A stretch of 64,000 nt of DNA from IMG/VR virus record IMGVR_UViG_3300010373_001364, positions 112,116 to 176,115 of that record. One strand, 5' to 3'. The position numbers and the translations under genes are program-made. Numbering within the stretch: position 1 is the first letter of the stretch; the number at the start of each line of letters is the position of its first letter. This DNA is from a virus. Taxonomy: Duplodnaviria; Heunggongvirae; Uroviricota; Caudoviricetes. Under the pieces are notes generated by a model. It ran no database searches, was not told the DNA's origin, and worked only from the letters and a program-made list of their open reading frames with translations. This document shows positions 44,182 to 46,270 of the stretch, one piece after another.

Positions 44182-45507
44182 ATGAGGGAAGATGCCGACA
44201 TCATGCGGAAGACGAAGAACCGACGCGCCCGGACGCGGCGAGAGTGGATGGATGTTTACCGCTCCATTCGCGGCACGGCTTCTGACTATGAGCGTGAAGT
44301 CATTCGTTATGCCATGCGGATGCGGGATGATTTCCCAACGCCTGAGTACGAGGTCCGCCGAGTGATTTCTGAGGCTCACTCCCAGAACGGAACGCCAGTC
44401 CACGATGATGTGATGGTTCCGGCTCCAGTGGCTGCACCTGCTCAGATAGCCTTGGCGAAACAGCCGCTTAACATCAATCTTGACCGCATCTTTAAGGAAG
44501 CACTGAATGAGCGTGCCTTAAACTACCTACGCGGCTTACGGGCACCGGAAAACTACAATCCGCGCCCATCCCTCGACCAGCTACGGGACAGTTTCAAGAA
44601 GAACAACTACTTTATATCTGAGGATGACCTGTTCACCATCCATCAGGCGATCTCTGGTGGGCGTCCCATTAAAGTTGATGGACCCCCAGGTGTCGGCAAG
44701 ACTGAACTCGCCAAGCAGATCGGAATCGCGATGGGGCTGGACGTGCGCAACCCCCTGCACTTTGGAGAGTTGTTTGTTACGCCTGACATTTCCAAGGAAG
44801 AAGCATTCTACCGCTGGAACGACGCTCTGCGTCTGATTGACATGCAGTTGATCAGCGGTTTCGCGGATCGCATGGACAATGACGAGCTTCAGCGCGTTTA
44901 TGAGCAGGTATCCGATAATACCTACAGCCCGCGTTACCTTGATCTGCAAGTGCTGGTTCGCGCCTGCGTGATCCCATACAGCACTGTTTGTCTCGTCGAT
45001 GAAATTGACAAGGCATATCATGAATTTGATAACTACCTTCTGGGCGTTGTTGACCAGAACCACTTCATCGTGCCTGAGTTCGGGCGCGTGGGACGGGCGG
45101 CTCATGATCCGGCGACTGCGCCGATTTTCGTGATGACCAGCAACATGACCCGCGCTCTCAGTGGACCCCTTGTCCGGCGATGCAAGGCAGTCTTCTACGA
45201 CTATCTTGACGAGACTCTGGAGGCGAAGGTAATCAATGCCAAGGCGGGTATGACGATCCTTGACGCAGGAAAGGTTGCCGCTTTCTTTAAGAAGATTCGC
45301 AAGCATGAAAAGCTACGACTCCAGCAACCTCCCTCCACTGCGGAAGTCATCGAGACTTCCAGAGCGGTAATGGAACATAAGATGGACGTAACCGAGCAGA
45401 ACCTCTTTAAGCTGCATGGACACTGGATCAAGTACCGTGTAGATTACATTGCCATCAGCGACTTGTTCCTTCGCGGCGACGGTTCCTGGGCAGAAGGAGT
45501 GAACTAA
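44182..45507 (+). CDS. MoxR-like AAA+ ATPase (AAA_5 / CbbQ-NirQ-GvpN group) with Arg-rich N-terminal extension
   Basis: Walker A VDGPPGVGKTELAK. Walker B CLVDEIDKA. Sensor and Arg-finger region SNMTRALSGPLVRRC. AGGAGACAGG RBS. Confidence 0.8.
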   Translation: MREDADIMRKTKNRRARTRREWMDVYRSIRGTASDYEREVIRYAMRMRDDFPTPEYEVRRVISEAHSQNGTPVHDDVMVPAPVAAPAQIALAKQPLNINLDRIFKEALNERALNYLRGLRAPENYNPRPSLDQLRDSFKKNNYFISEDDLFTIHQAISGGRPIKVDGPPGVGKTELAKQIGIAMGLDVRNPLHFGELFVTPDISKEEAFYRWNDALRLIDMQLISGFADRMDNDELQRVYEQVSDNTYSPRYLDLQVLVRACVIPYSTVCLVDEIDKAYHEFDNYLLGVVDQNHFIVPEFGRVGRAAHDPATAPIFVMTSNMTRALSGPLVRRCKAVFYDYLDETLEAKVINAKAGMTILDAGKVAAFFKKIRKHEKLRLQQPPSTAEVIETSRAVMEHKMDVTEQNLFKLHGHWIKYRVDYIAISDLFLRGDGSWAEGVN

Positions 45508-45677
45508 TGGAAACCGACTGGCGTTTTCGGGCATGGGTAGAGAAGAATCTCCCAAAGGATAAACAAACCTTCAGCCGCGATGCGGTGGAGATGCTTCTCT
45601 CCCTTGTTTGGAAAGAAGCAAGAAGCCAGGGGCACCGAGACATCGAAAACCGCAAATACGAGGACTACGACCTGTGA
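45507..45677 (+). CDS. hypothetical small protein (56 aa)
   Basis: TAATG- and GTGA-coupled between the ATPase and the next gene. Confidence 0.35.
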   Translation: METDWRFRAWVEKNLPKDKQTFSRDAVEMLLSLVWKEARSQGHRDIENRKYEDYDL

Positions 45678-46270
45678 TCTACACCAAAGAGGAAGCCGAG
45701 AAGCTGCAATCCGAGTGGGTAGAGCGTGCCAAGAAATATAAAGCCAGGAAGTTCGACAACGCCAACCAGCAAGCCATTGAAAACCATCTCATTCAGGGTT
45801 TGATTGCTTGGGGGGATGGACCTGGCGTAGGTGCATACCATAAACTCATCCTTGAAAAGGGTGAGTGGTTTATCGGTAGAGCAAAGGTAGATGACTACGA
45901 AATCTGCAAGCAATTCCGTAAGGAATTTCGCCCAAGGATGAAGCAGTGCTTCTACAATTCCCAGATGTTCGTCGGTTGGATGGATAAAGGGAGATACTTT
46001 GAGGGTTTCATGTGCGACGGCTTTATTGCTGTCAATCATGGCTGGGTAGTGATGCCTGATGGCAAGCTGATTGACTTCACTTTGGAGGCTCGCGACCGCC
46101 ACTTGAAGCGATCTAAAGCTGACCGCGAAGGCATTTCCTTGGATAAGATCGCCTACCTTGGCGTAGAGGTTCCCACGGAGTTCATGAAAAGGAAGATCGT
46201 TGAATTGAGATCCTGCACCCTTGTGGCACACATGCATTATCTCAATGACCACCGACAAATCTGGATATGA
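45674..46270 (+). CDS. Transglutaminase-like (papain-fold) cysteine peptidase
   Basis: KQCFYNSQMF (G.C..F(A/S) Cys motif). NHGWVVMPDGKLIDFT (H.W......G..ID.T His and Asp motif) in the canonical TGL order and spacing. Confidence 0.5.
   Translation: MIYTKEEAEKLQSEWVERAKKYKARKFDNANQQAIENHLIQGLIAWGDGPGVGAYHKLILEKGEWFIGRAKVDDYEICKQFRKEFRPRMKQCFYNSQMFVGWMDKGRYFEGFMCDGFIAVNHGWVVMPDGKLIDFTLEARDRHLKRSKADREGISLDKIAYLGVEVPTEFMKRKIVELRSCTLVAHMHYLNDHRQIWI

What the first reader, a model, noticed from the sequence alone, without database searches (positions are those of the whole stretch)
44182..46270. MoxR-like AAA+ ATPase, 56-aa ORF and transglutaminase-like cysteine peptidase as a coupled module directly upstream of smpB
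MoxR/AAA_5 ATPases in bacteria are typically partnered with VWA/DUF58 and transglutaminase-like proteins in chaperone or remodelling operons. Here a MoxR-like ATPase (with an Arg-rich N-terminal extension) is TAATG-coupled to a micro-ORF and GTGA-coupled to a protein with TGL Cys (KQCFYNS) and His/Asp (NHGWVV...DGKLIDFT) motifs, then ATGA-coupled to smpB. A phage-encoded remodeller-protease pair next to a ribosome-rescue factor is unusual. It could target stalled-ribosome or tagged substrates or a host defence protein.
Basis: partly seen in the sequence, partly recalled or inferred. Interest (0 to 1): 0.6.

Follow-up and report, generated by a model that had tools for sequence, protein, structure and literature searches.

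The report
Phage MoxR–VWA module with cargo genes
In this jumbo-phage fragment a MoxR-class chaperone ATPase is paired with a large VWA–metalloprotease protein 2.7 kb downstream, while the small cysteine-enzyme gene and smpB sit in a variable cargo slot between them, so the proposed ATPase–protease–SmpB unit is only partly real.

Summary
All four ORFs and their TAATG, GTGA and ATGA junctions are real. The ATPase is MoxR-like (Pfam AAA_5). SmpB is unambiguous.

The 198-aa protein matches no Pfam, PHROG, NCBIfam or PADLOC model. Three things place it in the transglutaminase/papain-like superfamily:
- A confident AlphaFold model (pLDDT 93.7).
- A Cys92/His122/Asp134 triad conserved in at least 97% of 147 diverse relatives.

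It belongs to a large unannotated family of 2,244 clusters.

The space between the two genes is variable:
- The TGL-like gene is there in 3 of 10.
- SmpB is there in 4 of 10.
- Both are there only in this window.
- The short ORFs there are not homologous.

Distant TGL-like genes occur without the ATPase.

Verdict: this is a phage variant of the known MoxR–VWA(–peptidase) theme. The TGL-like enzyme and SmpB are facultative cargo. A functional link to ribosome rescue is unproven.

The parts
44028..44052 (+). Intrinsic-terminator-like hairpin (11-bp stem, then ATTTTT) that closes the upstream unit. The ATPase array starts after it.
   Evidence: best terminator-like site in 43500-51500.
44182..45507 (+). 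MoxR-like AAA+ ATPase, 441 aa. The N-terminal ~130-aa extension carries a conserved RRRARTRxEW motif. Walker A is GPPGVGKT (167-174). Walker B is DE (273-274). N321, R324 and R333 are invariant.
   Evidence: Pfam AAA_5 30.4 bits. NCBIfam 'MadB family AAA-type ATPase' E 2.5e-32 but far below its cutoff. About 38 phage-type homologues at 38-100% identity, then cellular MoxR (AAA_3) at about 30% identity. Invariant columns in A6.
45507..45677 (+). 56-aa ORF that fills the gap between the ATPase and the TGL-like gene. Probably coding, but not conserved.
   Evidence: ORF and overlaps. Coding-like codon usage. No family hit. Not homologous to the 62-78-aa ORFs at the same position in L010, L011, L012 and L014. 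Absent in L002.
45674..46270 (+). Soluble 198-aa thiol enzyme of transglutaminase/papain-like fold. Predicted triad is Cys92-His122-Asp134. Member of a large unannotated family.
46267..46710 (+). SmpB (SsrA-binding protein), 147 aa. Cargo of the same slot. No tmRNA gene in the window.
   Evidence: Pfam SmpB E 2.1e-56. NCBIfam 197 bits against cutoff 130. Orthologues at 72-76% identity in the same slot in L011, L012 and L014. No tmRNA.
46707..48174 (+). Four further tightly packed small slot ORFs: 83 aa (46707-46958), 111 aa (46955-47290), 155 aa with a YbjQ_1 domain (47301-47768) and 134 aa (47770-48174).
   Evidence: YbjQ_1 E 7.7e-13. Only the 111-aa ORF recurs, in L012 at 55% identity.
48225..50459 (+). 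744-aa cognate partner of the ATPase. N-terminal VWA domain with a degenerate MIDAS motif. C-terminal region has an invariant HExxH(xxE) zincin motif (H577/E578/H581). Gly/Arg-rich tail ends in a conserved FG[LFVI].

Best explanation
**What it is.** The region is part of a co-oriented, tightly packed gene array of a huge phage. The array begins after the terminator at 44028-44052.

**Core (shown).**
- The core is a chaperone/co-chaperone pair.
- One member is a MoxR-class AAA+ ATPase (44182-45507).
- The other is a 744-aa VWA protein carrying a C-terminal HExxH metallopeptidase-like domain (48225-50459).

**Cargo slot (shown).** Between the two core genes lies a slot whose content differs from phage to phage. 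In this phage it holds:
- a 56-aa ORF;
- a soluble 198-aa thiol hydrolase of transglutaminase/papain-like fold (Cys92/His122/Asp134);
- SmpB;
- four small ORFs.

**Likely mechanism (inferred by analogy with NorQ/NorD, Rea1, ATV p618/p892 and the predicted MoxR-vWA-TGL degradation system).**
- The VWA domain captures a peptide of a target protein or complex.
- The MoxR hexamer pulls on it and remodels it.
- The target is then cut or released by the zincin domain of the VWA protein.
- Where the TGL-like thiol enzyme is present, it acts as an optional second hydrolase.
- SmpB is separate translation-rescue cargo inherited in the same slot. It is not an obligate part of the machine.

**Shown versus inferred.** Gene identities, pairing and slot variability are shown. 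Enzyme activity, substrate and any physical contact among the proteins are inferred.
For: **The pair.**
- The VWA-HExxH protein accompanies the ATPase in 10 of 10 gene orders, over 41-91% ATPase identity.
- HExxH is invariant in 29/29.
- The ATPase catalytic motifs are invariant. An intein sits in its P-loop in L002/L003. Such a site is typical of functionally important residues.

**Slot variability.** Contents by locus:
- L002 and the P0007 contig: TGL.
- L011, L012, L014: SmpB.
- L008: nothing.
- L009, L010, L015: unrelated ORFs.

**The TGL-like enzyme.**
- pLDDT 93.7, with Cys at a helix N-terminus and His in the next hairpin.
- Conservation among residues aligned at each position (A7 has 147 sequences): C92 139/142, H122 145/145, D134 138/142.
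- hhalign aligns arYfEGy..HAW with PARYFTGY..HAC of the TGL protein 3isr.

**Literature.**
- MoxR-vWA-TGL operons are predicted to be ATP-dependent degradation systems (PMC3495828).
- vWA components commonly carry C-terminal effector domains (PMC7159879).
- A viral MoxR/VWA pair exists in ATV (PMC4124505).
Against: - No experiment or complex prediction links any of these proteins.
- Pfam Transglut_core is not matched.
- The MIDAS motif of the VWA domain is degenerate: S-L-[SA]-G-I instead of D-x-S-x-S. Metal-dependent ligand capture may therefore not apply.
- The zincin assignment rests on a short motif plus 2/29 marginal SprT-like hits.
- The ATPase, the slot and the VWA gene lie inside a longer syntenic block running from the amidoligase to the aldehyde dehydrogenase. 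Adjacency therefore partly reflects shared ancestry.
- The TGL-bearing and SmpB-bearing phages all belong to one close clade. ATPase identity to the window is at least 79% where measured (L002/L003, L011, L012, L014). It was not measured for the P0007 contig, whose VWA homologue P0126 is 75% identical. The number of independent gain or loss events is therefore small.
- Translational coupling of the TGL-like gene to the ATPase operon could still mean a real functional tie.
Confidence: 0.55

Rival explanations
1. The ATPase and the TGL-like peptidase form a dedicated remodeller-protease pair. Together with SmpB, the pair acts on stalled ribosomes, tagged proteins or a host defence protein.
For: - The four genes have overlapping starts and stops.
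- ATPase-TGL adjacency recurs in L002/L003 and the P0007 contig.
- It probably also recurs on three short contigs, judged by matching contig lengths.
- SmpB sits directly after the ATPase and a short ORF in L011, L012 and L014.
- MoxR-vWA-TGL triads are known.
- The ATPase N-terminus is Arg-rich and the VWA tail is Gly/Arg-rich, which would fit RNA or ribosome binding.
Against: - TGL is missing from 7 of 10 ATPase gene orders.
- TGL and SmpB coexist only in the window.
- TGL relatives occur without the ATPase in L001 and L004-L007. The family is far larger (2,244 clusters) than the ATPase homologues found (99 proteins with E <= 0.001, about 38 of them phage-type).
- SmpB of other huge phages has no such ATPase within 10 kb.
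- No tmRNA lies nearby.
Confidence: 0.15
2. The slot is simply a hot spot for unrelated accessory genes (morons). The TGL-like enzyme works alone, for example as a deamidase, isopeptidase or peptidase aimed at a host protein, or at a tRNA- or translation-linked substrate. It has no functional tie to the ATPase/VWA pair.
For: - Slot content is hypervariable and the short ORFs are not homologous.
- TGL relatives are stand-alone 140-200-aa proteins in many contexts.
- No shared neighbour exists across lineages.
- In three independent lineages a relative lies within two genes of a translation gene: SmpB, PTH2 or an ArgRS-like gene.
- Rare fusions to polynucleotide kinase or phosphatase domains exist.
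Against: - The gene is translationally coupled inside the ATPase-led array.
- It has co-diverged with that array in the close clade. TGL identity is 58-66% where VWA identity is 75-83%.
- The known MoxR-vWA-TGL precedent makes a link plausible.
- The context sample is small (five lineages), and huge phages are rich in translation genes anyway (PMC7162821).
Confidence: 0.25
3. The TGL-like protein is a cell-wall hydrolase or lysin, like the TGL-fold pseudomurein endoisopeptidases PeiW/PeiP or the NlpC/P60 endopeptidases.
Against: - No signal peptide, membrane segment or wall-binding domain is evident in the 198-aa sequence.
- None of the neighbouring proteins I scanned against Pfam matched a holin, endolysin or spanin family; only part of the window was scanned.
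Confidence: 0.04

Closest known systems
Prokaryotic MoxR - vWA - YebA-like transglutaminase (TGL) three-gene operon (Zhang & Aravind 2012, PMC3495828)
   Same: - A MoxR-class AAA+ ATPase, a VWA protein and a Cys-His-Asp enzyme of TGL-type fold lie in one co-oriented array.
- The predicted logic is the same: VWA recruits, MoxR unwinds, the peptidase cuts.
   Different: - Here the TGL-like protein is a soluble 198-aa protein that Pfam Transglut_core does not match. It is not an eight-TM YebA-like membrane protein.
- It is facultative (3 of 10 gene orders) rather than strictly associated.
- It is separated from the VWA gene by five other genes.
- The VWA protein carries its own HExxH domain.
- The host is a phage.
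MoxR/VWA chaperone pairs: NorQ/NorD, CbbQ/CbbO, CoxD/CoxE, RavA/ViaA, and eukaryotic Rea1/midasin (AAA_5 ring plus MIDAS domain)
   Same: - AAA_5-type ATPase with a VWA partner.
- VWA_CoxE hits in homologues.
   Different: - About 30% identity or less to cellular MoxR proteins, with no AAA_3 hit.
- The ATPase has a 130-aa N-terminal extension with an Arg-rich motif.
- The MIDAS motif is degenerate.
- The VWA protein has an HExxH domain and a Gly/Arg tail.
- No metalloenzyme client is encoded nearby.
Viral MoxR/VWA pair p618/p892 of Acidianus two-tailed virus (PMC4124505)
   Same: A virus-encoded MoxR-type ATPase with a VWA partner that stimulates it. The pair is assigned a chaperone role in remodelling viral proteins.
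   Different: - That virus is archaeal, and no sequence relationship to it was tested here.
- Virion association and a tail-development role are unknown for this phage.
- ATV has no TGL-like or SmpB cargo.
vWA-MoxR ternary conflict systems with effector domains fused to the vWA component (Kaur et al. 2020, PMC7159879)
   Same: - A MoxR plus vWA core, with a C-terminal effector-type domain on the vWA protein (here HExxH) and variable accessory genes.
- These systems are common in planctomycetes, among other phyla.
   Different: - No VMAP, iSTAND, FtsH or beta-propeller third component was detected.
- PADLOC gives only marginal P-loop-level hits.
- The module is encoded by a phage rather than a cellular genome.
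Transglutaminase-like / papain-like thiol enzymes with solved structures: 3isr, TgpA (6g49), PeiW, LapG, NTAQ1 (3c9q), protein-glutaminase
   Same: - Cys at a helix N-terminus followed by His and Asp on a beta-hairpin.
- The motif C..-..Y.EG[FY]..HAW.V..D.T resembles the TGL core C..-..RY..GY..HAW.E..DPT.
   Different: - No significant sequence or HMM match to any of them.
- Minimal stand-alone size with a three-helix N-terminal extension.
- Activity and substrate are unknown.
SmpB genes of huge phages (Al-Shayeb et al. 2020, PMC7162821)
   Same: A phage-encoded SmpB in a genome of more than 200 kb. This is already reported as a feature of huge phages.
   Different: - Here SmpB is embedded between a MoxR ATPase and its VWA partner in four related phages.
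- This clade's SmpB ends a few residues earlier than SmpB of other huge phages.

Membership tests
MoxR-class AAA+ ATPase (Pfam AAA_5 / AAA_3) | Pfam AAA_5 match above the gathering score | tested here: met
   AAA_5 E 4.6e-7, 30.4 bits against cutoff 22, covering 6-138 of 139 profile positions.
MoxR-class AAA+ ATPase (Pfam AAA_5 / AAA_3) | Match to AAA_3 (PF07726), the MoxR-proper model | tested here: not met
   No AAA_3 hit at E <= 0.1. Only the about 30%-identical cellular relatives carry PF07726.
MoxR-class AAA+ ATPase (Pfam AAA_5 / AAA_3) | Intact Walker A, Walker B, sensor and arginine residues | tested here: met
   G167, P168, G170, G172, K173, D273, E274, N321, R324 and R333 are invariant in 32 homologues.
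MoxR-class AAA+ ATPase (Pfam AAA_5 / AAA_3) | Genomically linked VWA-domain partner | tested here: met
NCBIfam NF047784 'MadB family AAA-type ATPase' (equivalog) | Score at or above the curated cutoff (475 bits) | tested here: not met
   112 bits, E 2.5e-32, over nearly the whole profile. This makes it a relative, not a member. I could not find what MadB refers to.
Transglutaminase-like superfamily (Pfam Transglut_core PF01841) | HMM match to Transglut_core | tested here: not met
   No Pfam hit for the protein or for the domain in any of 147 diverse relatives. No PDB sequence hit with profiles.
Transglutaminase-like superfamily (Pfam Transglut_core PF01841) | Conserved Cys-His-Asp triad in that order | tested here: met
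   Among residues aligned at each position: C92 139/142, H122 145/145, D134 138/142. All three are invariant in the close family.
Transglutaminase-like superfamily (Pfam Transglut_core PF01841) | Papain/TGL core topology: Cys at a helix N-terminus, with His and Asp on following strands | tested here: met
   In the AF2 model (pLDDT 93.7), helix 92-103 starts at Cys92, strand 120-126 holds His122, and Asp134 follows a short strand.
Transglutaminase-like superfamily (Pfam Transglut_core PF01841) | Significant structural similarity to solved TGL/papain-like proteins | tested here: inconclusive
Transglutaminase-like superfamily (Pfam Transglut_core PF01841) | Thiol-dependent peptidase, amidase or transferase activity | not testable with these tools
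   This needs enzymology.
MoxR-vWA-YebA(TGL) operon | Strict three-gene association | tested here: not met
   The TGL-like gene is present in only 3 of 10 ATPase/VWA gene orders. TGL relatives occur without the pair.
MoxR-vWA-YebA(TGL) operon | TGL domain embedded in a multi-pass membrane protein | tested here: not met
   The protein is 198 aa, all helices and strands fold into one compact confident model, and I saw no hydrophobic segment by eye.
VWA domain | VWA fold | tested here: met
VWA domain | Canonical MIDAS motif D-x-S-x-S ... T ... D | tested here: not met
   The first element reads S83-L-[SA]-G-I87. T115 and D165 are invariant. The alignment to the canonical motif was made by eye.
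Zincin metallopeptidase (HExxH) | Conserved HExxH with a third ligand | tested here: inconclusive
SmpB | Match above the curated cutoffs | tested here: met
   Pfam 190 bits against cutoff 27. NCBIfam PRK05422 197 bits against cutoff 130. TIGR00086 182 bits against cutoff 119.
SmpB | Full-length C-terminal tail and a cognate tmRNA | tested here: inconclusive
   The match ends at position 149 of 156 of the model. The tail is 3-6 residues shorter than in other huge-phage SmpB. No tmRNA is in the window or related loci. The rest of the 214-kb genome was not seen.

The most novel reading that the evidence does not exclude
**The reading.** The MoxR ATPase and its VWA-zincin partner form a phage-encoded machine that remodels ribosomes or ribonucleoprotein particles. 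It would be a viral counterpart of Rea1/midasin.

**Features that would fit.**
- The ATPase has a conserved Arg-rich N-terminus.
- The VWA-zincin partner has a Gly/Arg-rich tail with a conserved FG[LFVI] end.

**Role of the slot.** Under this reading the slot collects translation quality-control factors that work with the machine on host ribosomes: SmpB, plus the TGL-like thiol hydrolase.

**Context of TGL relatives.**
- Relatives sit beside PTH2 and ArgRS-like genes.
- Rare relatives are fused to polynucleotide kinase or phosphatase domains.

**Possible activity of the TGL-like enzyme.** It could hydrolyse a peptidyl-tRNA or aminoacyl-tRNA, a nascent chain or a tag linkage.
Probability: 0.1. 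Interest if true: 0.8.

Novelty: new variant of a known kind. Interest (0 to 1): 0.4.

Why it matters
**A defined pair to test.** MoxR/VWA pairs are widespread, but few have known clients. This analysis defines a conserved huge-phage version with three unusual traits:
- a peptidase-type domain on the VWA protein;
- an intein in the ATPase P-loop of some members;
- a variable cargo slot.

That gives a tractable pair to test for what phages remodel in their hosts or in their virions.

**An unannotated enzyme family.** The TGL-like protein belongs to a family of about 2,200 clusters with a clear Cys-His-Asp signature and no Pfam, PHROG or NCBIfam model. Annotating and assaying it would name thousands of 'hypothetical' proteins.

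**A specific hypothesis.** SmpB recurs inside the MoxR/VWA array, and translation genes recur next to TGL relatives. This links phage protein remodelling to ribosome rescue and can be tested. It is not yet supported.

Tried and rejected
**Searches that found nothing or too little.**
- DNA similarity to GenBank phages: none.
- tblastn of the TGL-like protein found only one megaphage, LR756511.
- tblastn of the ATPase found only a 28%-identical Acinetobacter phage 'ClpA'.
- Scans for more loci with the ATPase profile found no relative in IMG/VR. The metagenome collection gave one distant 30% hit. Gene-order statistics therefore rest on 10 gene orders.
- PDB sequence searches with the protein and with two profiles gave only chance hits to Rieske dioxygenase, a portal protein and G3P dehydrogenase.
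- Foldseek against the PDB was not significant. The AlphaFold-database library was not available.
- The meaning of 'MadB' could not be found in three literature searches. 'TglA' of S. pyogenes could not be found either.
- PADLOC gave only marginal P-loop hits and no defence-system assignment.

**Ideas rejected.**
- The 56-aa ORF is not a conserved coupling protein, because it has no homologues at the same position.
- SmpB is not generally linked to MoxR in huge phages.
- The lysin idea was set aside for lack of secretion or wall-binding features.
- The TTG start at 45608 for a 220-aa TGL protein was rejected. Homologues and public gene calls support the GTG at 45674.
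Full report
**1. The observation.**
The four ORFs exist as described:
- ATPase, 44182-45507.
- 56-aa ORF, 45507-45677.
- 198-aa protein from a GTG at 45674 to 46270.
- SmpB, 46267-46710.

The junctions are TAATG, GTGA and ATGA. Shine-Dalgarno-like motifs precede three starts (AAGGAG at 44166 and at 45494, GAGGA at 45660; read). Public gene calls use the same starts (P0021, P0001).

A strong terminator-like hairpin at 44028-44052 precedes the ATPase. 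After it the genes run head to tail up to 50459.

The 56-aa ORF has coding-like codon usage. It scores 0.168 per codon, against 0.292 ± 0.104 in frame and -0.405 ± 0.150 off frame for real genes.

**2. Context.**
The window looks like part of a huge phage:
- The identical proteins come from a 213,884-bp contig.
- Nearly all long ORFs are on one strand.
- There is a Gp23-type capsid hit plus DnaJ, a sigma-70-like factor, an amidoligase and sugar-modifying enzymes.
- There is no tRNA, tmRNA or Rfam match in the window.
- There is no DNA similarity to GenBank phages.

**3. The ATPase.**
- Pfam AAA_5 is matched above threshold.
- NCBIfam gives 'MadB family AAA-type ATPase' at E 2.5e-32 over almost the whole profile. 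The score is 112 bits against an equivalog cutoff of 475. I could not find what MadB is.
- About 38 homologues at 38-100% identity share the long N-terminal extension. The next relatives are about 300-aa cellular MoxR proteins at about 30% identity that carry AAA_3.
- Walker A, Walker B, sensor and arginine residues are invariant. An N-terminal RRRARTRxEW motif is conserved.
- In L002/L003 the orthologue is 791 aa. A LAGLIDADG intein is inserted between the Lys and Thr of the P-loop: GPPGVGK|AQPLN…VVTHN|TELAKQ.
- A 776-aa version exists on another contig.

**4. The 198-aa protein.**
No Pfam, PHROG, NCBIfam or PADLOC model matches it. The word-indexed search found 20 relatives. The exhaustive profile search found 2,244 clusters at E <= 0.001 and 320 at E <= 1e-10. 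Most are stand-alone proteins of 140-200 aa.

Conservation in 147 diverse members, counted among residues aligned at each position:
- Cys92 in 139/142, His122 in 145/145, Asp134 in 138/142.
- Also conserved are N95, Y108, E110, G111, W124, T136, Y161 and G163.

None of the 147 hits a Pfam model over this domain.

The AlphaFold model is confident (pLDDT 93.7, pTM 0.88). Cys92 lies at the first residue of helix 92-103 and His122 in strand 120-126. Asp134 comes just after the next short strand. This is the papain/transglutaminase arrangement.

- TglA, PeiW, NTAQ1, LapG, menin and protein-glutaminase.
- NAT, NlpC/P60, transglutaminases 2 and 3, factor XIII and vasohibin.
- The effectors SpvD, OspI, SseI and Cif.

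Foldseek found nothing significant. hhalign of the family profile against real TGL cores taken from 3isr and TgpA aligns arYfEGy…HAW.V with PARYFTGY…HAC (probability 31%) and with AHAWVEY.

I conclude that this is a divergent, unannotated family of the TGL/papain-like superfamily with an intact catalytic triad. It does not meet the test for membership of Pfam Transglut_core.

**5.
In every related gene order that I could read, the ATPase is followed by a 697-747-aa protein. The two are either adjacent or separated by a few genes. This protein is homologous to window 48225-50459 at 35-83% identity.

Evidence for its domains:
- VWA_CoxE hits in 7 of 29 homologues and SprT-like hits in 2.
- Invariant H577-E578-x-x-H581 with E584.
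- A non-canonical first MIDAS element. T115 and D165 are kept.
- A C-terminus in all 29 members that is a Gly/Arg/Ser/Lys-rich linker ending in FG[LFVI].

The real conserved pair is therefore MoxR ATPase + VWA-HExxH protein.

**6. The slot between them.**

| Locus | Slot content |
|---|---|
| Window | 56 aa, TGL, SmpB, 83 aa, 111 aa, 155 aa (YbjQ_1), 134 aa |
| L002/L003 | TGL, 293 aa |
| P0007 contig | 253-bp gap, TGL, 84 aa, 235 aa |
| L011 | 65 aa, SmpB |
| L014 | 78 aa, SmpB |
| L012 | 65 aa, SmpB, 113 aa |
| L015 | six unrelated ORFs |
| L009 | 321 aa, 212 aa, one reverse gene |
| L010 | 62 aa |
| L008 | nothing |

- TGL is present in 3 of 10 gene orders, SmpB in 4 of 10, and both only in the window.
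- Three more short contigs probably carry ATPase + TGL. I infer this from matching contig lengths.
- The SmpB copies are orthologues at 72-76% identity.
- The short ORFs after the ATPase are not homologous, apart from L011 and L012.
- The whole region sits in a longer syntenic block: amidoligase … ATPase … VWA … aldehyde dehydrogenase.
- All TGL-bearing and SmpB-bearing phages are close relatives. Few independent gain or loss events are therefore needed to explain the pattern.

**7. TGL relatives elsewhere.**
- In the 595-kb phage LR756511, and in L004-L007, the gene has no ATPase or VWA neighbour.
- No common partner gene exists across these lineages.
- In three independent lineages a translation gene lies within two genes. 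These are SmpB (window), PTH2 (L004) and an ArgRS-like protein (L005/L006). A class-I tRNA synthetase gene also lies on the P0015 contig.
- Two rare fusions join the domain to a polynucleotide-kinase P-loop (P0272) or a PNK3P/HAD phosphatase (P0258).
- This is a lead, not a result. The sample is small and huge phages carry many translation genes (PMC7162821).

**8. SmpB.**
- It is a clear family member.
- Phage SmpB is already known from huge phages.
- SmpB of two other huge phages has no ATPase, VWA or TGL gene within 10 kb.
- This clade's SmpB ends slightly early.
- No tmRNA was found in the window or related loci.

**9. Mechanism.**
Shown:
- the gene identities;
- the ATPase-VWA pairing;
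- the facultative nature of TGL and SmpB.

Inferred from NorQ/NorD, Rea1, ATV p618/p892 and the predicted MoxR-vWA-TGL degradation system:
- The VWA domain binds a client peptide.
- The MoxR ring remodels it.
- The HExxH domain processes it, and where present the TGL-like thiol enzyme does too.

The client is unknown. It could be a host complex or a virion protein.

I put a fully independent role for the TGL-like enzyme at about 0.25.

**10. Verdict.**
- This is a new phage variant of the known MoxR-VWA(-peptidase) theme, plus a large unannotated TGL-like family.
- Interest is moderate.

Noticed in passing
L002 5629-8004 (also L003; P0007 contig, 776-aa gene): The ATPase orthologue carries an intein with a LAGLIDADG homing endonuclease. 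It is inserted exactly in the Walker A P-loop (GPPGVGK|A…HN|TELAKQ), with Ala at intein position 1 and Thr at +1.
   Followed up: partly
L004 9133-9523; L005 4218-5603; L006 6581-7780; proteins P0258 and P0272: Relatives of the TGL-like protein lie within two genes of PTH2 (apparently split into two ORFs) and of an ArgRS-like gene. Rare members are fused to polynucleotide-kinase or PNK3P/HAD phosphatase domains. This may hint at a tRNA or translation theme for the family.
   Followed up: partly
window 46267-46710; L011 8502-8927; L012 8466-8900; L014 8542-8991: This phage SmpB clade ends 3-6 residues earlier than SmpB of other huge phages. It lacks the last ~7 positions of the NCBIfam model. 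No tmRNA gene is in the window or related loci. Whether the protein supports or blocks trans-translation is open.
   Followed up: partly
window 50330-50459 (C-terminus of the 744-aa protein) and 44182-44260 (N-terminus of the ATPase): All 29 homologues of the VWA protein end in a Gly/Arg/Ser/Lys-rich linker plus FG[LFVI], which could be a docking or RNA-binding tail. The ATPase N-terminus has a conserved RRRARTRxEW motif.
   Followed up: partly
window 38627-39592; L014 14428-14784: An Amidoligase_2 gene heads the conserved syntenic block. One relative has a GGACT/AIG2-like gene downstream. I recall from the Pfam description that this pairing is typical of predicted peptide-tagging systems. Any relation to the TGL-like thiol enzyme was not tested.
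   Followed up: no
window 248-1897, 9015-10616, 24861-25997, 27581-28717, 53380-54942, 58864-60819, 62057-62680: Other notable genes of the phage fragment: a TPP-dependent enzyme, a B12-binding radical SAM enzyme, a DegT-type aminotransferase, a full-length DnaJ, an aldehyde dehydrogenase, an SPFH/Band 7 protein and a sigma-70-like factor.
   Followed up: no
L004 1-487: The 63-kb contig carrying the TGL relative P0010 also encodes an N_methyl + SBP_bac_10 protein. From memory, this type is typical of Planctomycetota, which may be a host clue for part of this phage group.
   Followed up: no
L008 2527-2621: ARAGORN calls a 95-nt tRNA-Ala(TGC) inside a called 1,164-aa Laminin_G_3 gene. It is probably a false positive or an unusual embedded or intron-bearing tRNA.
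   Followed up: no
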